Source: an uncultured virus (IMG/VR IMGVR_UViG_3300027973_000051)
Lineage: Duplodnaviria; Heunggongvirae; Uroviricota; Caudoviricetes
IMG/VR virus record: IMGVR_UViG_3300027973_000051
Length of the DNA stretch: 20,000 bases
Strand: one strand, 5' to 3'
Of this stretch, positions 3,174-20,000 are shown one piece after another. The notes beneath the pieces were generated by a model. The model was not told where the DNA came from, ran no database searches, and worked only from the letters and a program-made list of their open reading frames with translations. Both the position numbers and the translations under genes were made by a program. Each line of letters opens with the position of its first letter. Position 1 is the first letter of the stretch.

Positions 3174-5420
3174 CTATACTGTGTCTGGACGGTCAAATAC
3201 TAACATTTTTGTTGTAAAGAAGTTGTCATATGGTTCGCAGTTAATAGAAACCTTGTCTAGTGTCATATATACTGTTTCTATTAGTTCAATATTTTTAAAG
3301 TCTCCAAGTTCTGGTGAGAATATTTGATATGTAGCATCAATATCTACAGCCTTTATAAATCTTGTAACTCCATCTTTTTTAACTAAGACATAGTGAGACT
3401 TAGAGAACAAATCTCCTTCAATATAAATAAACTCATCTTCTTGTGCAATATTAATAGCAACAATTTCAGTCTCTACAATATTTTCCATATCTAAAGATAT
3501 ATCAGATGATTGCCATGTTGTCCAGTCTGTTACATTATCATCAATCTTAAGAGCAAGTAGTTTATCTCCCACCTTTAGTTCTCCTGCTGATTTTTTAGAT
3601 CCTGGGGCTCCTGCGGTAAGTATGTCAGTCAAAATACTTATTGAGTTGAAGAAACCAAATGCTCCAAACGTTTCTCCGCCAGAAGGTACAAACGAGAAGG
3701 CTCCAAATGCAGTAAATCCTGATGGAGTAAAGGAAAACGCCGAAGGCGTAAATGAGAATGCACCAAATGCACCGAAGGCGCTAAATGTTGCTGGTGCTGG
3801 ATTGCATACGCACCGTCCAGCGCAATTAATTGTTCCAGCACATCCATCTGCTCCAGTACAATCCATATCGGCATTAGCACTACATGGTGCTGCAGTTGGT
3901 GCTACAGTAGCCGTTGGTGCAGGAGTTGTTGTTACGGTTGGTGCGGGAGTCGTTGTTACAGTTGGTGCGGGAGTTGTTGTTGGTGCTGCTGGACAGTCCC
4001 AATAATAAGCCAATGTACAAGGATTCTGGTAAATTGCAACTGGTGTTGAAGAACCATTACACTGTCTATTTTCAATCCCTTGATAAACTAAATTACAATT
4101 TGTAGGTGCAGGTGTTGTGGTAACCGTTGGTGTTGGTGAAGGAGTTGGTGAAGGAGTTGGTGAAGGAGTTGGTGAAGGAGTTGGTGTTGGAGTTGGTGTA
4201 CATGTTGGAACTGTAGGATATCCAGGGTATCCAGATGTAGAACAAGATGTTGCATAGTCATTACATAAAGAACCACTTACATCATAACTTGCAGTACCTT
4301 GCTCAGTTGATCCATTTTGATACTTTGTTGAGCAATACCAAGTTGTCCCTGGTGTAGGTGTTGGTGTAACTGTAGGGGTTGGTGTTGCTGAAGGCGTTGG
4401 CGTTGGCGTTGTTGTTGGAGTTGGTGTACAATTTATGGTTGGATAACCACTTGTGCTTGTTGTTGCATCTGTTAAAATACCAGTCATACAAAAACTTTCA
4501 AGGCTATCTAATGCTTGAATTAAGCCAACATTACTAGAGCCATGCACTAATACACCATCACAACATCCCGATGCATACCAAGTTGATGGTGCAGGTGTTG
4601 GTGTTGGTGTTTGAGTTGGAGCAGGTGTACAACTTGGTGTTCCGCTAGTTGGTGTTGATCCACAAACCCATCCAATTGGTGGATAACCATTTGCATTTTC
4701 TTGTGCAGCATATGCATCAGCACATGATGAAGATGTCTGAAATGGTCCATATCCAGTATTTGTTAAATCACAATAACCAAAGTAATTTGTTCCAGCAGTT
4801 GTAGTTGGTGTTGGAGTTGTTGTAGGTGTTGGAGTACAATTAACAGAAGGATAAGAAGTTCCATAAACAACAGTTCTTTGTGTTGGTCCTACTAAACTTT
4901 GTGTACAGAAACTATCTAATGCATCAAGTGCATTTGCTTCTGATGAAAGACTGCTTCCATGAATTAGTACACCATCACAACATCCTGATGCATACCACCC
5001 AGTTATTCCAGTGCTTGTTGGTGTTGGTGTAACTGTTGGTGTTGGTGTTGGAGTTGGAGTTGGTGTAACTGTTGGTGTTGGTGTTGGTGTTGGTGTTGGT
5101 GTTGTAGTAGATGTAGGAGCAGGAGTAGTTGTTGGTCCTGGTGTAGAAGTTGGTGCTGGTGTAGAAGTTGGTGCTGGAACATAAGCATAATAAATAAAAC
5201 TTACATCTGACTCATACTGAACAAGATCTCCAGCATTAGGAAGTTGAGATGCAATTTTATCACTTAAAGATGCGTTAGATGTATTAGAAGATCCACCATT
5301 AATAGGATTTAGTCCTGAACTATAAATTGTAGCAATTGCTTGGGCTGTTGTTAGGTTAGAAAGATTTGGTACTGTTACCATTCCTTTTGATGATGACCAT
5401 AGACCAAATGAGTTTAACAT
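3174..5420 (-). CDS. PASTA + Pro/Thr-rich mucin-like repeats + Cys modules + Phe-rich tract + C-terminal Hint-like domain; probable virion surface/fibre protein
   Basis: N-terminal VTVPNL...A...I...GL...IASQLPNAG (PASTA). Several (TP)n tracts and a duplicated WYASGCCDGVLxHGSS module. C-terminal S-ISILTDILT..ELKVGD, SKSH and INCEPYDNFF..LVFD blocks. Confidence 0.8.
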   Translation of the reverse strand: MLNSFGLWSSSKGMVTVPNLSNLTTAQAIATIYSSGLNPINGGSSNTSNASLSDKIASQLPNAGDLVQYESDVSFIYYAYVPAPTSTPAPTSTPGPTTTPAPTSTTTPTPTPTPTPTVTPTPTPTPTPTVTPTPTSTGITGWYASGCCDGVLIHGSSLSSEANALDALDSFCTQSLVGPTQRTVVYGTSYPSVNCTPTPTTTPTPTTTAGTNYFGYCDLTNTGYGPFQTSSSCADAYAAQENANGYPPIGWVCGSTPTSGTPSCTPAPTQTPTPTPAPSTWYASGCCDGVLVHGSSNVGLIQALDSLESFCMTGILTDATTSTSGYPTINCTPTPTTTPTPTPSATPTPTVTPTPTPGTTWYCSTKYQNGSTEQGTASYDVSGSLCNDYATSCSTSGYPGYPTVPTCTPTPTPTPSPTPSPTPSPTPSPTPTVTTTPAPTNCNLVYQGIENRQCNGSSTPVAIYQNPCTLAYYWDCPAAPTTTPAPTVTTTPAPTVTTTPAPTATVAPTAAPCSANADMDCTGADGCAGTINCAGRCVCNPAPATFSAFGAFGAFSFTPSAFSFTPSGFTAFGAFSFVPSGGETFGAFGFFNSISILTDILTAGAPGSKKSAGELKVGDKLLALKIDDNVTDWTTWQSSDISLDMENIVETEIVAINIAQEDEFIYIEGDLFSKSHYVLVKKDGVTRFIKAVDIDATYQIFSPELGDFKNIELIETVYMTLDKVSINCEPYDNFFTTKMLVFDRPDTV
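3895..5180 (-). repeat. Coding tandem repeats for Thr-Pro tracts (6-, 12-, 18- and 24-nt units)
   Basis: (GGTGTT)n, GGAGTTGGTGAA repeats at about 4135-4180, and PAPTVTTT-type units at about 3915-3985 inside the 748-aa ORF. Confidence 0.9.
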
Positions 5421-13442: not shown

Positions 13443-13497
13443 ATAATAGTAGGGATAAGGGAAAAAGTCAAGCATTTAGCGTGTGGTGTTGGTCACA
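13443..13497 (-). promoter_or_regulatory. Promoter with upstream CRP-like box
   Basis: TTGACT-17-TATTAT on the minus strand. TGTGG-N6-TCACA at 13482-13497. Confidence 0.75.
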
Positions 13498-13499
13498 CC

Positions 13500-13673
13500 T
13501 TAGAAGCCATACCATTTCTTGCGTATAGCCTCTATTGTGGCTATCTGTGCCTCATCTGCTGAGCGATAGGCTTCTACGCTTTCACGTATCCATGGAGACT
13601 TTAGCATAGCCTTCTCATGTGCTTCATGGCGAGCAAGGTCTTGCTCTGCCTTTATTCTGTTTAGTGTATCCAT
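13500..13673 (-). CDS. Hypothetical early protein (57 aa)
   Basis: MDTLNRIKAEQDLARHEAHEKAMLKSPWIRES...KKWYGF, with AGAAAGGTG RBS. Confidence 0.7.
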   Translation of the reverse strand: MDTLNRIKAEQDLARHEAHEKAMLKSPWIRESVEAYRSADEAQIATIEAIRKKWYGF

Positions 13674-13728
13674 TTAATGAACACCTTTCTTTAGTAGTTT
13701 TATTTAGTATTTAATTGTTATACCTGTA

Positions 13729-13794
13729 AGGGTATCATACATACCCTGAAAAGTCAAGGCGACACGCCGTTGGCGTGATGTGATGTGTGTCACT
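13729..13794 (-). promoter_or_regulatory. Promoter with ACGGCGTGTC element and CRP-like box
   Basis: TTGACT-17-TACCCT (TGn extended), GTGTC 3 nt upstream of -35, TGTGA-N6-TCACT at 13779-13794. Confidence 0.7.
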
Positions 13795-13810
13795 TATTCG
13801 CTACGCTCAT

Positions 13811-13826
13811 GCGAACATTTGTTCGC
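13811..13826. promoter_or_regulatory. LexA/SOS box (Gram-positive/actinobacterial type)
   Basis: GCGAAC-ATTT-GTTCGC is a perfect match to CGAAC-N4-GTTCG. Confidence 0.7.
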
Positions 13827-13879
13827 CTTATTTGGTAGGCTCATTGACCTTTTCTTTATTTAATTTTTTGTATACGGCA

Positions 13880-14048
13880 AGTATAACAGACATACCCCAC
13901 AAAGTCAAGTCCTGACACGGCGTGTCGCATGTGATGTCCCTCACATTTTACTCGGGTGAAATGTGGTGTAGGTCACATGTGTTCTACCTCACAATGTCCC
14001 TAATGTCCGTATTGCACCCTACCATTTGTCAGTGGTAGGTGTTACACT
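13880..14048. promoter_or_regulatory. Divergent promoter hub
   Basis: Minus: TTGACT-17-TATACT (13880-13908). Palindrome GACACG-G-CGTGTC (13914-13926). Three CRP-like boxes (13930, 13962, 13978). Plus: TGTCAG-N10-TACACT (14027-14048). Confidence 0.75.
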
Positions 14049-14104
14049 TACAGTATAAAGAAAAACAAGAGGTAAAGAAATCCTCTAAAGAAAGGTGGTC
14101 TAAA

Positions 14105-14278
14105 ATGACTACACTTACAGTATGTAAAGAGCATAACCCTATGCTATCCGCTATCTCCTCAGTAGGAGATGACCAATTCACTTTTTGTCAAGATTGTGAA
14201 AATAACATTGAGCGTTGGTATGACGATACTGACCCAGAAAGACTACCTATGTGGTCAGATTGGAAGGTTTCTAAATGA
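14105..14278 (+). CDS. Small Cys/His-containing early protein
   Basis: MTTLTVCKEH...FCQDCENNI...WSDW, with AAAGGTGG RBS. Confidence 0.7.
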   Translation: MTTLTVCKEHNPMLSAISSVGDDQFTFCQDCENNIERWYDDTDPERLPMWSDWKVSK

Positions 14279-14388
14279 GAGACTTTGTAGAAAAACTAGA
14301 AATAGAAAACTTTTGGGAAGATGAATACATTGACCCACTAGCAAAACGATTAGATGAACTAATCAAGAAAGGTAGTTACTCAAAATGA
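14275..14388 (+). CDS. Hypothetical peptide (37 aa)
   Basis: MRDFVEKLEIENFWEDEYIDPLAKRLDELIKKGSYSK, with ATGA overlaps at both ends. Confidence 0.6.
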   Translation: MRDFVEKLEIENFWEDEYIDPLAKRLDELIKKGSYSK

Positions 14389-14549
14389 GCACTTTCATAA
14401 ACCTTGCCTCTGTGTGTGGTAAATCTTCTGCTTCTGTTGATGTCTATGACCTAGACCTCAACCCTAATGGAGTTATCTGTTGCGATAACTGTAAGTCAAT
14501 TCTTATGTGCCGCAAGGCTTGGGATTTTCTATACAAGGAGAATAAATGA
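14385..14549 (+). CDS. Small Cys-rich protein (54 aa)
   Basis: MSTFINLASVCG...ICCDNCKSILMCR..., ATGA-coupled. Confidence 0.6.
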   Translation: MSTFINLASVCGKSSASVDVYDLDLNPNGVICCDNCKSILMCRKAWDFLYKENK

Positions 14550-14635
14550 AAACACTTCAAGAGAAATTAGATGAAGCAGCCATTGCACTAGAACCAGTGC
14601 TTTGGGAACTACTAGATGAAATTGATGGTAACTAA
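14546..14635 (+). CDS. Acidic peptide (29 aa)
   Basis: MKTLQEKLDEAAIALEPVLWELLDEIDGN, with AAGGAG RBS and ATGA coupling. Confidence 0.6.
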   Translation: MKTLQEKLDEAAIALEPVLWELLDEIDGN

Positions 14636-14688
14636 TGTTAGTTGTATGTATTGCAATGATGGTTTTTGGTTTTCTTTATTCCTTGTAA
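14635..14688 (+). CDS. Possible hydrophobic micropeptide (17 aa)
   Basis: MLVVCIAMMVFGFLYSL, TAATG-coupled and ending before a terminator. Confidence 0.35.
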   Translation: MLVVCIAMMVFGFLYSL

Positions 14689-14697
14689 ATAAAAAGC

Positions 14698-14727
14698 AAA
14701 GATCGCAGAATAAAAACTGCGATTTTT
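14698..14727 (+). terminator. Intrinsic terminator
   Basis: ATCGCAG-aataaaaa-CTGCGAT followed by a T run, with an A run upstream. Confidence 0.6.
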
Positions 14728-14740
14728 GACTCGGGCGGTT

Positions 14741-14806
14741 TGTGATGTAAAACACATCTAAGATACGGCGTGTCGTCTTGACTTTTTGACATTTCTCTGC
14801 TATACT
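14741..14806 (+). promoter_or_regulatory. Promoter with CRP-like box and ACGGCGTGTC element
   Basis: TGTGA-N6-ACACA, then ACGGCGTGTC-gtc-TTGACT-17-TATACT (TGn). Confidence 0.8.
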
Positions 14807-14856
14807 TCTAGTATAAAGAAAGTTGAGAAAGGTTCTCAAACTAGAAAGGTCAGAAA

Positions 14857-15021
14857 ATGACAAATAGAATGTGGGAAAGTCGAAATGACTTTCAGAATGA
14901 AAGTGACGCTAAGCGTCTTGGTTATGTAGCCTGTTCAGCAGGTTGCGGTAGAGTGACAGCATGGTCACTATGCGTAATGTGTGGAGGCAACTACGCCACA
15001 CACAACCTAGTAGGAAAGTGA
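14857..15021 (+). CDS. Small Zn-finger-like protein (54 aa)
   Basis: MTNRMWESRN...CSAGC...CVMC..., with AGAAAGG RBS. Confidence 0.65.
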   Translation: MTNRMWESRNDFQNESDAKRLGYVACSAGCGRVTAWSLCVMCGGNYATHNLVGK

Positions 15022-15082
15022 TCTAAATCACACAAACTGAACGGCGTGTCGTCTTGACTTTTTAGGTCTTATCTGATAGTCT
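15017..15082 (+). promoter_or_regulatory. Promoter with CRP-like box and ACGGCGTGTC element
   Basis: AGTGA-N6-TCACA, then ACGGCGTGTCGTCTTGACTTTTT (identical to the copy at 14765), 17 nt, TAGTCT (TGn). Confidence 0.75.
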
Positions 15083-15122
15083 TACTACATAAGAAAAACT
15101 AAATAAAGGACAAATTGGCTAA

Positions 15123-15174
15123 TGAGCCTAAGCAAATAAATGTGATGTAAATCACAGTGAGCCTTAGCAAATAA
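15123..15174 (+). repeat. 17-bp direct repeats flanking a CRP-like box
   Basis: TGAGCCTAAGCAAATAA and TGAGCCTTAGCAAATAA surround TGTGATGTAAATCACA. Confidence 0.85.
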
Positions 15175-15240
15175 GTAGTCAAAATGTCAGCCCCCAATGA
15201 TAGGATAGTCTTATCAACTTAAACGAAAGGTATAACACTT

Positions 15241-15426
15241 ATGTCATACACTGTAAAACTAGAAACCTTTTCAGGTTCTACAAAATCAATCTCACTCCCT
15301 AGCAAGGGTGCTGTTGCTCAATTCATTTCAACCTACCCTCAGACTTTGCCAATTGGTGTATCTGTGAAAATCGCTTGCGATACTCTTGGAATTACTGGAA
15401 CACTACGAGGAAAGGCCTCTCTATAA
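15241..15426 (+). CDS. Hypothetical early protein
   Basis: 61 aa, GAAAGG RBS, TGTCAG-N10-TAGGAT promoter upstream. Confidence 0.7.
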   Translation: MSYTVKLETFSGSTKSISLPSKGAVAQFISTYPQTLPIGVSVKIACDTLGITGTLRGKASL

Positions 15427-15629
15427 TGAAAATTGAACATAACCTAAAGTTTGTAACAGAGTTTGCAGAGGGTCACCCTGTAACGGCAACCATGTCTGCA
15501 CTAGATGAGTCTATGCGTGTTATCATGCTAGAGTCAATGCTAAAAGATTTAATTGCTCCACGCCTGCAACCAATTCTTGATGAAATAAATGCTAATGGCT
15601 CCTATGCAATTCTAAAGGTGGCAGACTAA
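15426..15629 (+). CDS. Hypothetical early protein
   Basis: MKIEHNLKFVTEF..., TAATG-coupled start at 15426. Confidence 0.7.
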   Translation: MKIEHNLKFVTEFAEGHPVTATMSALDESMRVIMLESMLKDLIAPRLQPILDEINANGSYAILKVAD

Positions 15630-15814
15630 TGAAGTACACTCGCAAAACTTTTATTGATGTCTCATCAATTCTAAATCAGTTTGAAAGTTCTATGGACTCT
15701 CACGTGTTTCAAGATTTAGTTTTTGAATTTAGTGAATTCTTTTTAGCAGACAATCCAAATTTTGATGAAACAAGATTTTGGGACGCTTGCGTTAAATCAG
15801 AAGCATTAGTATAA
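15629..15814 (+). CDS. Hypothetical early protein (DNPNFD..RF..AC type)
   Basis: M..TRK.F...S.IL...F..DNPNFDETRFWDAC, TAATG-coupled. Confidence 0.7.
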   Translation: MKYTRKTFIDVSSILNQFESSMDSHVFQDLVFEFSEFFLADNPNFDETRFWDACVKSEALV

Positions 15815-15819
15815 AATAA

Positions 15820-15847
15820 AAAACCTAAGCAAGTTTTAAAACTGCTT
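15820..15847 (+). ncRNA. Repeated pseudoknot RNA motif, copy A
   Basis: AAAAC-CT-AAGCA-A-GTTTT-AAAAC-TGCTT. Confidence 0.6.
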
Positions 15848-15876
15848 GATCTTTTCAAATAAAAATGCTCGGGTGG

Positions 15877-15897
15877 TTTTCCACAGGCTGTGGATAA
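15877..15897. promoter_or_regulatory. Inverted pair of DnaA boxes
   Basis: TTTTCCACA-ggc-TGTGGATAA; the second box is the reverse complement of consensus TTATCCACA. Confidence 0.7.
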
Positions 15898-16039
15898 GTT
15901 TAAGTGGATGTGATTTTTCTCACATTTCTCGAGCGTCTCATTATTTAAGACTACTCGCTAGTAATTAGATTTTTGTCAGTCTTTCATGATAGGATTACAG
16001 AGTAATAAGTTAATTAACAAAAAAGAAAGGCGGACTTAA

Positions 16040-16249
16040 ATGTCAGCACTAACCTATACAATAGATAACCTACTAGTAGGAAAACACTATCGCTCACGCT
16101 CTCGTCATGATGAGGGTACTATCTTACACGCAGAAAAGCGTGAAGGAATTTGGTATGGAGAAAATCTTGATGCCTATGTCGTTGAAGTATCTTCCACTTG
16201 TGGAATTAGAAACTTTTGGGCAACAGTAACAGTAAGAACAGGAGAATAA
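16040..16249 (+). CDS. Hypothetical early protein
   Basis: 69 aa, AGAAAGG RBS. Confidence 0.7.
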   Translation: MSALTYTIDNLLVGKHYRSRSRHDEGTILHAEKREGIWYGENLDAYVVEVSSTCGIRNFWATVTVRTGE

Positions 16250-16251
16250 TA

Positions 16252-16452
16252 ATGGGAAACTTATTTGATGAGATTGGCACTTGCTACACTTGCTATGATG
16301 AAGGTATCTTGTTTGTAGATATGGATAGCGAAGGATTTATAAATGATTTCTGCGCTGATTGTGAAAAAGGGCAAGGACTTGCTCAACAGTATGCTAAATG
16401 GTATGCTGAAAACGAATTAAACGAATACACTAAAGAAAAGGAAAATGCATAA
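16252..16452 (+). CDS. Small CxxC..CxxC protein
   Basis: MGNLFDEIGTCYTC...FCADCEKG, with AGGAG RBS. Confidence 0.7.
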   Translation: MGNLFDEIGTCYTCYDEGILFVDMDSEGFINDFCADCEKGQGLAQQYAKWYAENELNEYTKEKENA

Positions 16453-16667
16453 TGGAATACCTATACGCAATAACAGTATCACATGACGGAAAAGCCCCTC
16501 ATTGGACAGGTCGCTATGCAGACGCACTAAGTGCCGTTGATGAGTTTAATAAGCACATTGACTGGGGCTTTGCAGATGAATACGCAACAGTTAATTTATC
16601 TGAACCTAGTGGCAAAATGCACACTAGAACATTCTATCGTGAAGGACGAAAGGTAGTAACAAAATAA
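16452..16667 (+). CDS. Hypothetical early protein
   Basis: 71 aa, TAATG-coupled. Confidence 0.7.
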   Translation: MEYLYAITVSHDGKAPHWTGRYADALSAVDEFNKHIDWGFADEYATVNLSEPSGKMHTRTFYREGRKVVTK

Positions 16668-16987
16668 TGGGAAACAATACAGCAATAGACCTAGCAGAAA
16701 ATTTAGACCTATCACTTGAACAGGCTATTAGTTATCACTTACAGGGTAATCACTATCCTCCAGTACCGCTTAGCATGGTGCCAGTATGCGTACAGGCTAT
16801 TGACTTTGCTCATGAAGACCTATGGGATGAAACAATTGAAATGCCTGATGGAATTAGTTACAAGGGTGAAACCTGTGCTCCAGTATGGGCAATTATTGAG
16901 CAGCACCACCTTCATGCTTGGTTGCCTCAAGATGAAGATTTTGGTGATGAAGATGCAGGATTTGAATTAGGATTGGGGCTTGAATAA
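16667..16987 (+). CDS. Hypothetical protein (HLQGNHYPPVP, acidic tail)
   Basis: 106 aa, TAATG-coupled. Confidence 0.7.
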   Translation: MGNNTAIDLAENLDLSLEQAISYHLQGNHYPPVPLSMVPVCVQAIDFAHEDLWDETIEMPDGISYKGETCAPVWAIIEQHHLHAWLPQDEDFGDEDAGFELGLGLE

Positions 16988-17229
16988 TGAGTGCTACAAT
17001 GATTGACATGGAATTGAAGTTTGCAGATACACTAAAGCCTGATCAGTTAATGATTGAAGATTTGATTGCAATTAACGATGAGGTTGTTGAAGTAATTGAC
17101 ATTGACTCTGATGCAACAGGAACTATTTATGCCGTTGGATTTAGAAATGAGTTTGGTGAAAAAGATGTTGCAGAGTTTAATTTTACTGATGACGTTTCAT
17201 TGTATGTCTACGTTGATGATGACGAATAA
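16987..17229 (+). CDS. Highly acidic small beta-rich protein
   Basis: 80 aa, very Asp/Glu-rich, TAATG-coupled. Confidence 0.7.
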   Translation: MSATMIDMELKFADTLKPDQLMIEDLIAINDEVVEVIDIDSDATGTIYAVGFRNEFGEKDVAEFNFTDDVSLYVYVDDDE

Positions 17230-17289
17230 ATAAATCCCCTTCAAAATGGGGCCCGAGGCAAAATGTCCGTTTTGTACTAATTAAGATTA

Positions 17290-17318
17290 TTGACATTTTC
17301 CCCCAATTCTGCTAGAAT
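17290..17318 (+). promoter_or_regulatory. Near-consensus sigma70 promoter (leaderless transcript)
   Basis: TTGACA-17-TAGAAT with TGn; ATG follows 6 nt later. Confidence 0.8.
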
Positions 17319-17324
17319 TAAGAC

Positions 17325-17474
17325 ATGAAGAAAAATGCAGAGGAATTGCGTCGCCTAATGGAATTAAGACGCTCTAATGCTGCTTCCGCTGTCCCAAATA
17401 AAAAGAAATATGACAGAAAGAAATGTCAGTCCTTAATGCTAGAATTAAGAAAAGAAAGAGGCCCTCATGACTAA
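17325..17474 (+). CDS. Small highly basic protein (49 aa)
   Basis: MKKNAEELRRLMELRRSNAASAVPNKKKYDRKKCQSLMLELRKERGPHD. Not in the ORF track. Confidence 0.6.
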   Translation: MKKNAEELRRLMELRRSNAASAVPNKKKYDRKKCQSLMLELRKERGPHD

Positions 17475-18189
17475 ACTAAAAAGATCTAATGATAGAAAGG
17501 TGGCTAACCTTGTCACAAAAAATGGAAAACAAGCAGCAATCGCAAATACGTTTGGCTTACCTGCTGGAAAGGCTTTCTCGTGTCCTGGTGCCACTAGCGT
17601 ATGTGAAAGCGTATGCTACGCAGGAAAACTAGAAAAACTATTCAAGGGTGTAAAGGTTAATCTATTACATAACTGGGAATTACTTAAAGACGCTGATCAT
17701 GAGACCATGGTGCACTTACTAGATGAAATGATTAATGATTTTGTTAGTGACTGCAATAAGAAAGACGCTCCTAAATTATTCCGTATCCACTGGGACGGAG
17801 ATTTCTTCAATGATACTTATACACAAGCATGGAAGACTATCATACTTAATAATCCTGATATTCAATTTTGGGTTTATACACGAGTAAAGTCTGCAGTCTT
17901 AATCTTAAAAGACATAGACAATCTATCTTTATATTATTCTACAGATAGTGATAACAAGGCTATTGGTGTTGAACTTAAAAAAGATCATGGTGTGCGTCTT
18001 GCATACCTTGCTAAAAACTTTGCCATAGGTCAAGGTGAAATGAAAGAATTGTTTAATAAACCAGGGGCTAAGTGTCCTGAGAATAATAAACAAATACCAC
18101 TCATAAGCAATGCAGGTTCCGCTTGCGTTTCTTGCAGTTTATGTGTATACTCTAAAGCAGATGTAGTTTTTTCTGCAACCAAGAAATGA
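17467..18189 (+). CDS. Phage gp88-like protein (Cys-rich, radical-SAM-like)
   Basis: FGLPAG..SCPGAT..C...CYA, FRIHWDGDFF, FWVYTR and C-terminal CP...ACVSCSLC. Confidence 0.8.
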   Translation: MTKLKRSNDRKVANLVTKNGKQAAIANTFGLPAGKAFSCPGATSVCESVCYAGKLEKLFKGVKVNLLHNWELLKDADHETMVHLLDEMINDFVSDCNKKDAPKLFRIHWDGDFFNDTYTQAWKTIILNNPDIQFWVYTRVKSAVLILKDIDNLSLYYSTDSDNKAIGVELKKDHGVRLAYLAKNFAIGQGEMKELFNKPGAKCPENNKQIPLISNAGSACVSCSLCVYSKADVVFSATKK

Positions 18190-18195
18190 GAAACA

Positions 18196-18264
18196 ATGAC
18201 TCTACTAATACTAACTATCTTGTTTGTCTTAATCCTGTCCGCAGGGCTAGGTCACCACAAATAG
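18196..18264 (+). CDS. Possible hydrophobic micropeptide (22 aa)
   Basis: MTLLILTILFVLILSAGLGHHK, directly after the gp88-like gene. Confidence 0.4.
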   Translation: MTLLILTILFVLILSAGLGHHK

Positions 18265-18292
18265 TCCCAAATGTCCGTTTTGTCCCCTGAAA

Positions 18293-18367
18293 TGTGATGG
18301 AGGTCACAAAAATAAATCTAAAAAATGCCATAAATGACTTGAAAATGTCAGTAGGAAATGTTATACT
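18293..18367 (+). promoter_or_regulatory. Promoter with CRP-like box and TGTCAG spacer element
   Basis: TGTGA-tggagg-TCACA; TTGAAA-17-TATACT containing TGTCAG. Confidence 0.75.
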
Positions 18368-18398
18368 TAATACATACAACAACAAAAGGAGAAACACA

Positions 18399-18566
18399 AT
18401 GTCAGTAGCAACAAGCACATACAAGGTAGGCGACCTATACACTTCACAGAAGTCAAAGGTCACAGGAACAATCCTTGCGATTGACCCACAATCAAATGGT
18501 AATGTTCGTGTAAAGTTAGATGTTCAAGGTATCACTCGTTATACAACTTGGACACCTAAGCAGTAA
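18399..18566 (+). CDS. Small SH3/KOW-like beta protein (55 aa)
   Basis: YKVGD...GTI..I.....VRV.L pattern. AAGGAG RBS supports start 18399. Confidence 0.7.
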   Translation: MSVATSTYKVGDLYTSQKSKVTGTILAIDPQSNGNVRVKLDVQGITRYTTWTPKQ

Positions 18567-18573
18567 TTATCTT

Positions 18574-18600
18574 ATTCCTGAGTATGAATTAAAACTACTC
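18574..18600 (+). ncRNA. Repeated pseudoknot RNA motif, copy B
   Basis: ATTC-CT-GAGTA-T-GAAT-TAAAAC-TACTC. Confidence 0.6.
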
Positions 18601-18638
18601 CACACCCCCCCAACTAACAGAAATGGAAACGACCTAAC

Positions 18639-19061
18639 ATGGCAAGAGGAAAAGCAATCTCAGTAAAGATACCTACGCAACGAGTAATCGAAGCACTTGA
18701 GCAATCACTCAATAAACTAGAACTTGATTGGACATCACAAGAAGCCAACGAAGCAAGATACGAAATTGCTCGTAAGGCTTGGCAGAAAGCAGTTAGCGAG
18801 TTCGCAGTTGCTAACATCAGTAAGGCAGAAAACTTCCGCACCAACTATCGTTCATGGAACAATACTCTTAACATTGACTATGACTTAACAGTTAGCGAAA
18901 AAGAAATGCCTAAAGAGCCTGAGAAGGACTTTGTAACACTACACCAACACTCATACAATGAGCAAAAAGAGGAGATGGCTAACGCTATTCGTATTCTCAA
19001 GATGACAGATGAGGAAGTAGTTAATACTTCTACATACAACGCAGTTGCTCGTTATCTCTAA
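18639..19061 (+). CDS. Hypothetical helical protein
   Basis: 140-aa ORF, co-oriented, followed by a strong hairpin. Confidence 0.75.
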   Translation: MARGKAISVKIPTQRVIEALEQSLNKLELDWTSQEANEARYEIARKAWQKAVSEFAVANISKAENFRTNYRSWNNTLNIDYDLTVSEKEMPKEPEKDFVTLHQHSYNEQKEEMANAIRILKMTDEEVVNTSTYNAVARYL

Positions 19062-19065
19062 TTAG

Positions 19066-19100
19066 ATAATTGGGTGGGGTGTAAAAGCCCCACTCATTAT
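19066..19100 (+). terminator. Strong hairpin (terminator or processing stem)
   Basis: TGGGTGGGG-tgtaaaag-CCCCACTCA flanked by ATAA/TTAT. No clean U-tract. Confidence 0.5.
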
Positions 19101-19216
19101 CCCTTGCGTTCCACGCTATTTATAGCAAGTGTCCCCTGGGGATCCTTCGCCAGGCTGATTAGGGCGATAACAGAAATACTATAGAGCCAGTTCACACCAA
19201 CTGCAAGAAGTGTAAC

Positions 19217-19242
19217 TACCTGAGTAAGTATCAAAACTGCTC
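19217..19242 (+). ncRNA. Repeated pseudoknot RNA motif, copy C
   Basis: TAC-CT-GAGTA-A-GTA-TCAAAAC-TGCTC. Confidence 0.55.
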
Positions 19243-19316
19243 CCCGTAAGGGTCCTTGACAAATGTCAGTGACTAGTAGTACAATTGAACTAACCAACAA
19301 ACAGAAAGAGGCCCCC

Positions 19317-19742
19317 ATGGACCAAACAGAAACATCAGTAACAATCATAAACGCTACAGAAGATTTTCTTAAGTCAGAAATTGCAAAAAAGGATGAGCGC
19401 ATTGCTCAACTTGAAGACCACATTCAAAAAGTAACTCAGCGCTCCTATTCCGATTCAGCAGACCGTAACCGTATGGTTGAGGGAATGAAAGAATGGACCC
19501 TTAGTGAATTATCAGATGAAAGCATAACAGAAGAGCAAGCGGAAGCAATTGCTGAAATTATGGGCTTTGAATTAACAACAGAATTCGAAGTTGAAGTTAC
19601 AGTTATGTATTCAATTACAGTTAATGCACGTGATGAAGAGAGTGCACAGAATGCAATTCATGATATTGATTTTGACACTGTCTCTTATAACGATGAAAAT
19701 ATTTCATGGCTTAGCGCTAGCGTTGACAGAATAGATATTTAG
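19317..19742 (+). CDS. Acidic coiled-coil hypothetical protein
   Basis: Start MDQTETS at 19317 with AGAGG RBS. Upstream promoter TTGACA-18-TACAAT (19256-19285). Confidence 0.75.
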   Translation: MDQTETSVTIINATEDFLKSEIAKKDERIAQLEDHIQKVTQRSYSDSADRNRMVEGMKEWTLSELSDESITEEQAEAIAEIMGFELTTEFEVEVTVMYSITVNARDEESAQNAIHDIDFDTVSYNDENISWLSASVDRIDI

Positions 19743-19789
19743 TAGGGGGTCTACTAATAGACATGTCGAATGTCTTTAAACTAGGCAAG

Positions 19790-19818
19790 GGCCCTAAGCA
19801 TGGCCATGTAAACTGCTT
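19790..19818 (+). ncRNA. Repeated pseudoknot RNA motif, copy D
   Basis: GGCC-CT-AAGCA-T-GGCC-ATGTAAAC-TGCTT. Confidence 0.6.
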
Positions 19819-19856
19819 ATTTTTATTTTCCCTTGAAATTTTTGGCTCGGGTAAAA

Positions 19857-19958
19857 TGTGACCAATATCACAATGTGTTTAAGATCACAATTAAGAATGC
19901 CCTAATTGTCCATGTTTAACTATCTGGGCTTGCATTTGTCAGCCTATCCTGTTATACT
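19857..19958 (+). promoter_or_regulatory. Promoter module with two CRP-like boxes and TGTCAG element
   Basis: TGTGA-N6-TCACA (19857), TGTGT-N6-TCACA (19874), TTGCAT-17-TATACT containing TGTCAG. Confidence 0.75.
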
Positions 19959-19989
19959 TAGATTAACTACAAAAGAAAGAAGAAAACTC

Positions 19990-20000
19990 ATGGCACATGA
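19990..20000 (+). CDS. Start of next gene (truncated)
   Basis: ATG GCA CAT GA.. after a promoter and purine-rich leader. Too short to assign a product. Confidence 0.4.

What the first reader, a model, noticed from the sequence alone, without database searches (positions are those of the whole stretch)
15820..19818. Repeated compact H-type pseudoknot RNA with compensatory changes, placed after genes
Seen: four copies of P1a-CT-P2a-(A/T)-P1b-(0-4 nt)-AAAC-P2b. P1 covaries fully (AAAAC/GTTTT, ATTC/GAAT, TAC/GTA, GGCC/GGCC) and so does P2 (AAGCA/TGCTT, GAGTA/TACTC, GAGTA/TGCTC), while CT and AAAC are invariant. A degenerate fifth copy lies at 19759-19786. All are on the sense strand, three within 50 nt of a stop codon. 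Inference: a structured ncRNA family such as a nuclease-blocking element, protein-binding decoy (type III antitoxin-like) or small aptamer. I cannot assign it to a known family.
Basis: partly seen in the sequence, partly recalled or inferred. Interest (0 to 1): 0.85.

Follow-up and report, generated by a model that had tools for sequence, protein, structure and literature searches.

The report
Coremin-family RNA knots between phage genes
A lake phage of actinobacteria places five copies of a tiny knotted RNA fold just after genes; the fold shares its core with a plant-virus RNA that stops RNA-degrading enzymes, so phages and bacteria probably use the same roadblock on their messages, though this is untested.

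Summary
In detail: four 27-29-nt H-type pseudoknots on the sense strand (0.013 expected by chance). The 'degenerate' fifth copy is a conserved variant. Covariation survives tests blind to each stem (P1 115 of 122, P2 128 of 131). Rfam has no match.

The invariant bases are nearly those that mutagenesis showed essential in the plant-virus coremin Xrn1-resistant RNA. The exact coremin motif also occurs in gut DNA phages, ahead of scaffold genes, where this form occurs too. Coremin's loop G and second hairpin are missing, so this is a variant, not a member.

Best reading (0.45): a 5'-to-3' exonuclease roadblock (RNase J in this host), placed just outside the footprint of a terminating ribosome (P1 almost never closer than 4 nt to a stop codon).

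Against: 18 of 79 carrier genomes lack RNase J; 16-22% of copies carry a terminator-like U-tract; one copy abuts a tRNA; behind a small Cys/His peptide gene the knot is fixed to the peptide codons, not the stop. Rivals: 3' cap or terminator (0.22), ribosome roadblock (0.2).

The scan has noted this family before on other DNA (87 findings).

The parts
15820..15847 (+). Pseudoknot copy 1: P1 5 bp, L1 CU, P2 5 bp, AAAC linker; 5 nt after the stop of a 61-aa ORF, at the end of a gene block
18574..18600 (+). Pseudoknot copy 2: intercistronic, 7 nt after the stop at 18566 and 38 nt before the start of the 140-aa gene, followed by a C/A-rich leader
19217..19242 (+). Pseudoknot copy 3: P1 3 bp; followed directly by a 3-bp GNRA hairpin (19243-19252) and a promoter-like site (19256-19285)
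19760..19786 (+). Variant copy with a 9-nt loop: three pairs, then a G.A mismatch, a bulge and the invariant A-U pair; keeps the AAACUA linker of coremin; in tandem with copy 4
19790..19818 (+). Pseudoknot copy 4: linker 2 nt longer; followed at once by a U-rich tract
15629..15814 (+). 61-aa ORF of unknown function upstream of copy 1
   Evidence: no family
18399..18566 (+). 55-aa ORF upstream of copy 2 (start chosen by its ribosome-binding site)
18639..19061 (+). 140-aa conserved ORF downstream of copy 2; anchor for the 80 related loci
19317..19742 (+). 141-aa ORF between copy 3 and the variant/copy 4 tandem

Best explanation
The element is a Watson-Crick-extended relative of the coremin Xrn1-resistant RNA. 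On the phage's early polycistronic RNA it folds into a compact pseudoknot: a 3-5 bp P1 closed by C-G, a 5-6 bp P2, an invariant C crossing P2, and an AAAC strand on P1. It sits at the first position a terminating ribosome leaves intact. It acts as a one-way mechanical roadblock: the host 5'-to-3' exonuclease (RNase J in actinobacteria) degrades the upstream cistron and halts at P1, so downstream RNA keeps a protected 5' end and outlives the upstream part. Shown here: the fold by covariation, RNA strand, position, kinship of invariant bases with coremin, shared genomic niche with exact coremin, and a lineage-level association with RNase J. Inferred: tertiary contacts, nuclease arrest, and the identity of the nuclease.
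For: (1) Bases invariant here are nearly those whose mutation abolished Xrn1 resistance in coremin (PMC6546385). These are the C-G loop-closing pair (88 of 90), first loop C and linker AAAC (90 of 90 each when not asked for), structure-only P1 pairs 2-3, a dispensable fourth pair, and two free linker bases. A 2-nt longer linker is tolerated and a 1-nt shorter one is not; here gaps are 6 nt in 104, 8 nt in 19 and 5 nt in 1 of 129. A CGAGUAA heptaloop, one base shorter than this loop, resists Xrn1 (PMC10520033). (2) The exact coremin pattern matches 108 or more viral stretches; 57 of the 80 listed are contigs of 15 kb or more, and 10 of 10 downstream ORFs I tested from such loci are head scaffolding proteins. 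The 8-nt-loop form (7 loci; phage phiNM4) and the 9-nt-loop form occupy the same slot, upstream of the high-copy scaffold and capsid genes. (3) Stop-to-P1 spacing has a floor at 4-5 nt and a peak at 5-8 nt in three sets. (4) Full copies per sampled genome: Bacillota 19 of 400 and Patescibacteria 6 of 300, against Gammaproteobacteria 0 of 400 and Bacteroidota 2 of 400. RNase J passes its cut-off in 0 of 61 Gammaproteobacteria, 0 of 61 Bacteroidota and 50 of 61 Actinomycetota (three of the 50 are unpublished genomes G1584, G1601, G1631), and in 54 of 79 carrier genomes, 61 with fragments and near-cut-off hits. (5) A flaviviral xrRNA blocks bacterial RNase J1 (PMC5760640). (6) Five of five complete relatives encode WhiB, so the host is actinobacterial.
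Against: No nuclease or RNA-end data: RNA runs held only contigs of relatives. Coremin's required second hairpin is not enriched (0.40 vs 0.37, 0.17 vs 0.21, 0.32 vs 0.29), and its required loop G is U here. Ordinary frameshift pseudoknots of this size do not stop Xrn1. 18 of 79 carrier genomes have no RNase J hit, including all four Aminicenantes and two closed chromosomes (G021, G026). Copies or near-copies occur in a crAss phage, a Vibrio phage (L1 CC), a Pseudoalteromonas phage (AAAG) and an E. coli phage (P1 mismatch). 16 of the 19 Bacillota hits are one gene family, so the lineage contrast is not independent, and base composition may add to it. Only 29 of 208 kin copies have a ribosome-binding site and start within 60 nt. 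In the window three of four copies are followed by a new promoter-like site before the next gene. A copy 2-14 nt before tRNA-Asp (61 of 64) gains little from a 5' shield. 16-22% of copies carry an immediate U-tract.
Confidence: 0.45

Rival explanations
1. 3'-end element: the knot caps the upstream message against 3'-to-5' exonucleases after termination or RNase P cleavage. In the copies with a U-tract it replaces the hairpin of an intrinsic terminator.
For: U-rich tract within 0-4 nt of P2 in 31 of 191, 19 of 114 and 31 of 141 copies, against 0-2, 1-2 and 7-8 at later offsets; in kin it never occurs where a gene starts within 60 nt (0 of 25 vs 31 of 166). Copy 2-14 nt upstream of tRNA-Asp in 61 of 64 loci. 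Anchored to upstream stops. Present in genomes without RNase J. No strong plus-strand hairpin terminator in window 14920-20000.
Against: About 80% of copies have no U-tract. In the genome set the U-tract is not linked to absence of a downstream gene (p = 1.0). Position upstream of scaffold and capsid genes fits protection of downstream RNA better. Any hairpin slows 3' decay, so this does not explain the coremin-specific invariant bases. Kin copies share ancestry.
Confidence: 0.22
2. Ribosome roadblock: the knot sits at the mRNA entry channel of a ribosome at the end of an ORF. It pauses the ribosome or stops post-termination scanning, uncoupling translation of neighbouring cistrons and shielding downstream structures.
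For: The spacer of 5-8 nt equals that of recoding pseudoknots (the comparison is recalled). Coremin stalls scanning ribosomes and drives -1 frameshifting, also in an E. coli screen, and the Watson-Crick form does so without the second hairpin. Behind an unannotated Cys/His micro-ORF the knot lies exactly 11 nt after the last conserved codon in 24 of 28 loci across several phyla, while the stop codon lies before, inside or beyond the knot. Needs no RNase J.
Against: No recoding signal: stops are TAA in 96 of 100 close kin copies, and frames are mixed in all sets. 27 of 208 kin copies lie more than 50 nt from any stop, including copy 3. The floor is equally explained by exclusion from the ribosome footprint. 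The 28 peptide loci were hand-picked from 32 and are one family.
Confidence: 0.2
3. Protein-binding decoy such as a type III antitoxin mimic, or a binding site for a phage regulator.
For: Small pseudoknot with invariant loop bases, several copies in an early region; type III antitoxins are pseudoknots (recalled).
Against: Copies are dispersed, not a tandem array; no Rfam antitoxin match at E up to 5; they follow unrelated genes in many phyla and in bacterial chromosomes; no shared neighbouring protein.
Confidence: 0.05
4. Small aptamer (riboswitch) or self-cleaving ribozyme.
For: High conservation of unpaired bases; superficial likeness of the loop and linker to hammerhead core words.
Against: No common downstream function or expression platform. 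The hammerhead core CUGAnGA (PMC10085705 passage) is not met: the sixth base is Y, and the third and fourth bases vary with P2. 27 nt is very small for either.
Confidence: 0.03

Closest known systems
Coremin motif, xrRNA-C (BNYVV RNA3, cucumoviruses and others; PMC6546385, PMC10520033)
   Same: 3-4 bp first stem closed by C-G, first loop base C, penultimate loop A, last loop base mostly A/U, two free linker bases then AAACU, tolerance of +2 but not -1 linker length, tandem copies, position just after a stop codon. The 9-nt-loop variant also keeps AAACUA and a G.A juxtaposition.
   Different: Loop is 8 nt with U, not G, at position 2; five Watson-Crick pairs form P2; no conserved second hairpin; occurs in DNA phages and bacterial chromosomes; nuclease resistance untested.
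Watson-Crick coremin, xrRNA-WCC (SPlV5; PMC10321173)
   Same: Canonical pseudoknot pairs between the hairpin loop and the bases after the A-run; same first stem and linker layout.
   Different: WCC has a 4-nt loop starting with a required G, a 3-bp S2 that includes G8-C18, and needs the second hairpin for Xrn1 resistance; here the loop starts CU, the linker C is unpaired and P2 has 5-6 bp.
Luteoviral -1 frameshift pseudoknots (BWYV, PLRV) and readthrough pseudoknots
   Same: Compact H-type fold, L1 cytosine, A-rich strand on stem 1, 5-9 nt downstream of a decoding site.
   Different: No slippery site or leaky stop seen; lies in untranslated spacers; the BWYV knot does not stop Xrn1.
Type III antitoxin RNAs (ToxI, AntiQ)
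   Same: Small repeated pseudoknot RNA.
   Different: Dispersed rather than a tandem array, no cognate toxin operon seen, no Rfam match.

Membership tests
Coremin xrRNA-C | 3-4 bp first hairpin, structure over sequence, C-G closing pair | tested here: met
   Closing C-G 88 of 90; pairs 2-3 take all Watson-Crick types, pair 4 paired in 110 of 145; P1 pairs 2-3 formed in 115 of 122 matches of a pattern that did not ask for them.
Coremin xrRNA-C | Linker: two free bases, then AAACU; +2 tolerated, -1 not | tested here: met
   AAAC 90 of 90 blind; gap 6 in 104, 8 in 19, 5 in 1 of 129; requirement from PMC6546385.
Coremin xrRNA-C | A after AAACU (A20) | tested here: not met
   G in 96%, A in 4% of 129 kin copies. 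Met in window copy 2 and in the 9-nt-loop variant.
Coremin xrRNA-C | Loop consensus YG(NN)AD | tested here: not met
   First Y, penultimate A and last D are kept (last base C in 6%), but position 2 is U in 90 of 90.
Coremin xrRNA-C | Second hairpin directly after the linker | tested here: not met
   No enrichment over shuffled flanks in three sets: 77 of 191, 19 of 114, 45 of 141. Only window copy 3 has one.
Coremin xrRNA-C | Stalls a 5'-to-3' exoribonuclease | not testable with these tools
   Only contigs were available for RNA runs.
xrRNA-WCC | Watson-Crick pairing between loop and bases after the A-run | tested here: met
   128 of 131 P2-blind hits form all four variable pairs; none on the opposite strand.
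xrRNA-WCC | G as first loop base and a G8-C18 pair | tested here: not met
   First loop base C; last loop base A/U/C in 99% faces the linker C; requirement.
Type III antitoxin | Tandem repeat array upstream of a toxin gene | tested here: not met
   Copies dispersed over 4 kb after unrelated ORFs; no Rfam antitoxin match.
Type III antitoxin | Cognate ToxN-family gene in the genome | tested here: inconclusive
   0 of 5 complete relatives, but no control genome rang.
Readthrough or frameshift pseudoknot | Leaky stop or slippery site with a conserved frame | tested here: not met
   TAA in 96 of 100; frames 55/36/9, 18/17/5, 22/12/16. Slippery sites were inspected by eye in the window only.
Intrinsic terminator | U-tract directly after the stem | tested here: inconclusive
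   Present in 16-22% of copies, strongly position-specific; absent from the rest; none of the window copies is called a terminator.
Hammerhead ribozyme | CUGAnGA core | tested here: not met
   Sixth base is Y; bases 3-4 covary with P2.

The most novel reading that the evidence does not exclude
Coremin is not a plant-virus speciality but one branch of a cross-domain family of minimal RNA roadblocks. Three interchangeable forms (4-, 8- and 9-nt loops) are used by DNA phages and bacterial chromosomes. It would be the first natural bacterial xrRNA family, and the same knot could also serve as a pseudoknot-type terminator and as a ribosome checkpoint behind a small metal-binding peptide gene.
Probability: 0.35. 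Interest if true: 0.9.

Novelty: new variant of a known kind. Interest (0 to 1): 0.72.

Why it matters
xrRNAs are known from eukaryotic RNA viruses; one paper states that they never naturally meet RNase J1 (PMC5760640). A natural bacterial and phage counterpart would give phages a 27-nt device to set mRNA stoichiometry inside long operons, for example scaffold and capsid over portal genes. It would also offer a fully Watson-Crick model for the coremin fold, unsolved as of the 2023 papers read, in which the longer P2 may replace the puzzling second hairpin. It is directly testable in lab strains and with cultured phages that carry it (Mycobacterium phage Labelle, Bacillus phages Page and Pony, Lactobacillus phages), and could be a very small mRNA stabiliser for synthetic biology.

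Tried and rejected
Rfam on the window, on 20 and 8 chromosomal loci and on 8 loci including plant-virus coremin loci: no match at the motif, so Rfam lacks coremin too.

RNA evidence: 10 runs with shares of 0.05-0.08; four were laid and gave only contigs of relatives, some covering copy 3. They show no ends or strand, and DNA may be present, so they are not used as evidence.

Readthrough and frameshifting rejected. A DNA-level or ssDNA element rejected: three copies on the opposite genomic strand of complete relatives are sense to local genes, two of them 5 nt after a stop. A tRNA-acceptor mimic ending in CCA rejected: ACCA follows only 9 of 129 copies. A general coremin-like scan of kin loci was too noisy (617 plus vs 226 minus hits). 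A presumed larger ncRNA upstream of chromosomal copies turned out to be a micro-ORF, with no NCBIfam match. The Stenotrophomonas phage hit is not a copy. The plasmid search gave 5 weak records, not examined. The ToxN search was uninformative. No cultured relative of the 140-aa protein. Nested folding cannot model the knot and returned P1 or P2 alone.

Literature: nine searches found no report of this motif or of coremin in phages or bacteria. Supplements that could hold it were not seen: PMC5737381 (unreadable) and three files of PMC10690425 (not searched). The PMC10520033 supplement did not hold the RnHV2 context.
Full report
Setting. The window is part of a virus record. Positions 14000-20000 hold small plus-strand ORFs; of the 22 window proteins scanned, the only solid family in this stretch is GP88. 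The 140-aa protein found 464 relatives in viral contigs, of which the best 80 were kept. Five complete relatives (108-118 kb) all encode WhiB, so the host is an actinobacterium (inference). No cultured relative was found.

Observation. A descriptor finds exactly the four copies named, all on +, against 0.013 in 300 shuffles. In the 80 kin loci it finds 280 copies, all on +, in 79 loci; relaxed hits split 65 plus and 67 minus and are background. Because descriptors build in pairing, I ran blind tests. A kin scan that did not ask for P2 gave 131 distinct hits, 128 with all four variable P2 pairs, and none on the minus strand. A scan that asked for neither L1 nor the linker gave CU and AAAC in 90 of 90. 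On 145 distinct copies (60 kin, 60 genome, 25 viral-pattern; 6-nt gap only; selected by my descriptor), 8 of 9 pairs show changes on both sides. The covariation score is 0.534 against 0.192 shuffled and at most 0.124 when slid. Three copies on the opposite genomic strand of complete relatives are sense to their local genes, so the element acts as RNA. Rfam has no match.

The fifth copy. 19760-19786 has a 9-nt loop. Its pattern has 77 matches in viral contigs, 30 distinct cores. The first P2 pair is G-C 15, A-U 9, G-U 6 and never A-C (4.5 expected). It has a G.A juxtaposition and a bulge before the A-U pair; G and A were fixed by the pattern. 35 of 77 stand in tandem with a standard-type copy. 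Others lie between a minor head gene and a scaffold gene.

What it resembles. I noted the likeness to coremin from recall and then checked it in papers: PMC10321173 parts 1-4 of 6, PMC10520033 parts 1-4 of 6 and PMC6546385 part 2 of 4. Coremin needs a C-G closing pair, structure-only pairs 2-3, no fourth pair, two free linker bases, then A16-A20 of AAACUAC; it tolerates two extra linker bases but not one fewer. The natural variation here follows these rules. Coremin also needs loop YG(NN)AD, A20 and a second hairpin, and these are not met. The longer P2 covers the bases where the second hairpin starts in coremin, so it may replace it (inference). The exact coremin pattern matched 108 or more viral stretches. 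Of the 80 listed, 57 are contigs of 15 kb or more. Ten downstream ORFs that I chose from the 50 distinct contexts are all head scaffolding proteins of one family. Of 11 short contigs tested, 9 matched RdRP, viral coat or capsid, or benyvirus families at E up to 0.001, two of them weakly. The 8-nt form precedes a scaffold gene in 7 of the 80 titled genome loci and in phiNM4, there with a U.U mismatch. Three forms in one slot argue for one function.

Position. The spacer from stop codon to P1 is 12 nt or less in 100 of 208 kin, 40 of 109 viral-pattern and 50 of 104 genome copies. It peaks at 5-8 nt, and only one case falls below 4 nt. ORFs of 50 aa or more end inside the knot in 0 of 208, 0 of 114 and 4 of 117 copies, and run through it in 0, 2 and 3. 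Stops are not leaky and frames are mixed. Downstream contexts differ: a ribosome-binding site and start within 60 nt in 29 of 208 kin copies, 51 of 113 viral and 33 of 116 genome copies; tRNA-Asp 2-14 nt away in 61 of 64 kin loci; an immediate U-tract in 31 of 191, 19 of 114 and 31 of 141, far above later offsets.

Hosts. RNase J (TIGR00649) passes its cut-off in 54 of 79 carrier genomes (the 79 behind the 80 titled loci; 39 further loci not tested), or 61 counting seven fragments and near-cut-off hits. 18 have none, among them four Aminicenantes and two closed chromosomes. In even samples, centre genome removed, full copies (P1 of 3 or more pairs, P2 5 of 5) occur in 0 of 400 Gammaproteobacteria (3 raw), 2 of 400 Bacteroidota (4 raw; one of the two lies inside an ORF), 6 of 300 Patescibacteria (8 raw) and 19 of 400 Bacillota (23 raw). 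RNase J passes in 0 of 61, 0 of 61 and, for Actinomycetota, 50 of 61 (three unpublished genomes included). 16 of the 19 Bacillota hits are one gene family. Cultured phages with BLAST matches are mostly of Bacillota and cyanobacteria for one query, but other queries add Vibrio, Escherichia, Yersinia, Erwinia, Pseudoalteromonas and crAss phages. Of seven inspected, Labelle and crAss cr7_1 have perfect copies, four have one deviation each, and one is not a copy. The association with RNase J is a trend with real exceptions.

A side class that bears on mechanism. In 28 chromosomal loci, hand-picked from 32, the knot follows an unannotated 18-29-aa ORF ending in HCxxG(C/H), often near copper-handling genes. 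The first loop C lies 11 nt after the last conserved codon in 24 of 28. The stop lies upstream in 8, in P1 in 5, is the knot's own UGA in 12, and lies beyond in 3. There the ribosome must often melt the knot, and several loci show a terminator-like hairpin next (by eye). This favours a ribosome-directed or 3'-end role, at least in that class.

Verdict. The structure is established as far as sequence can show. It works most likely like coremin, as a one-way roadblock. I put nuclease arrest at 0.45, a 3' cap or terminator at 0.22, a ribosome roadblock at 0.2, a decoy at 0.05 and an aptamer or ribozyme at 0.03; these may coexist in different copies. It fails three defining features of coremin and is filed as a new variant. 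That xrRNAs can stop RNase J1 rests on passages of PMC5760640. Passages of PMC12191101 and PMC10085705 did not mention the motif. Nine literature searches found no report in phages or bacteria, but two candidate-RNA supplements could not be fully read. The scan's own notes list 87 findings with the words coremin, xrRNA and pseudoknot in at least 83 genomes and a close relative with the same reading; these are leads, not support. The eight notes shown per call did not mention the exact coremin before scaffold genes, the 9-nt form, the U-tract subset or the peptide-locked class; I did not see the other notes.

Noticed in passing
L357-L377, L206, L218, L220, L224, L229, L241, L248, L252, L257, L263, L279, L318 (60-90 nt upstream of the knot): Unannotated conserved 18-29-aa ORF with a strong ribosome-binding site, basic N-terminus and HCxxG(C/H) end, in Bacillota, Aminicenantes and other anaerobe-rich phyla. 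Often near copper ATPase, HMA, CsoR or MerR genes, with CsoR-like palindromes upstream in some (label recalled). The knot is fixed 11 nt after its last conserved codon in 24 of 28.
   Followed up: partly
L459, L461, L462, L466, L467, L481, L492, L517, L518, L530: The exact plant-virus coremin motif in gut dsDNA phage contigs, 27-98 nt upstream of a head scaffolding gene, mostly without a hairpin directly behind it.
   Followed up: partly
window 13482-19889: Twelve of 13 CRP-type palindromes (TGTGA-N6-TCACA, up to 1 mismatch; 1.24 expected) cluster in the early region upstream of promoters; noted by earlier findings too.
   Followed up: partly
window 14004-19960: Nine sites with TGTCAG-like hexamers 10 nt before a -10 box; earlier notes read these as PafBC-type promoters.
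   Followed up: partly
window 15877-15897: Two inverted DnaA-box-like nonamers just downstream of copy 1 (label recalled).
   Followed up: no
window 19147-19190: A second conserved non-coding element between the 140-aa gene and copy 3: a short hairpin with an almost invariant core and an A-rich tail, hit in 35 kin loci, always on +. The spacer 19062-19215 folds better than shuffles (z -2.5); no Rfam match.
   Followed up: partly
L334 and L338 (G031 contig C50): In a Polynucleobacter-labelled bin, four copies lie on one 16-kb contig, two followed by hammerhead-like CUGAUGA...GAAA words; probably a phage contig.
   Followed up: no
L213, L237, L280, L225, L256, L278: Chromosomal copies beside ArdA, ArdC, DUF2958 and DUF3768 genes, typical of leading regions of integrated mobile elements (the context label is recalled).
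   Followed up: no
L130:9020, L169:9098; L379, L384, L395: Further variants in kin phages: a 6-bp P2 with a 9-nt loop, and copies with an A.G mismatch in place of the A-U pair plus an extra U.
   Followed up: no
window 3174-5420: 748-aa ORF with long Pro/Thr repeats and Cys-rich modules, in the minus-strand structural region.
   Followed up: no
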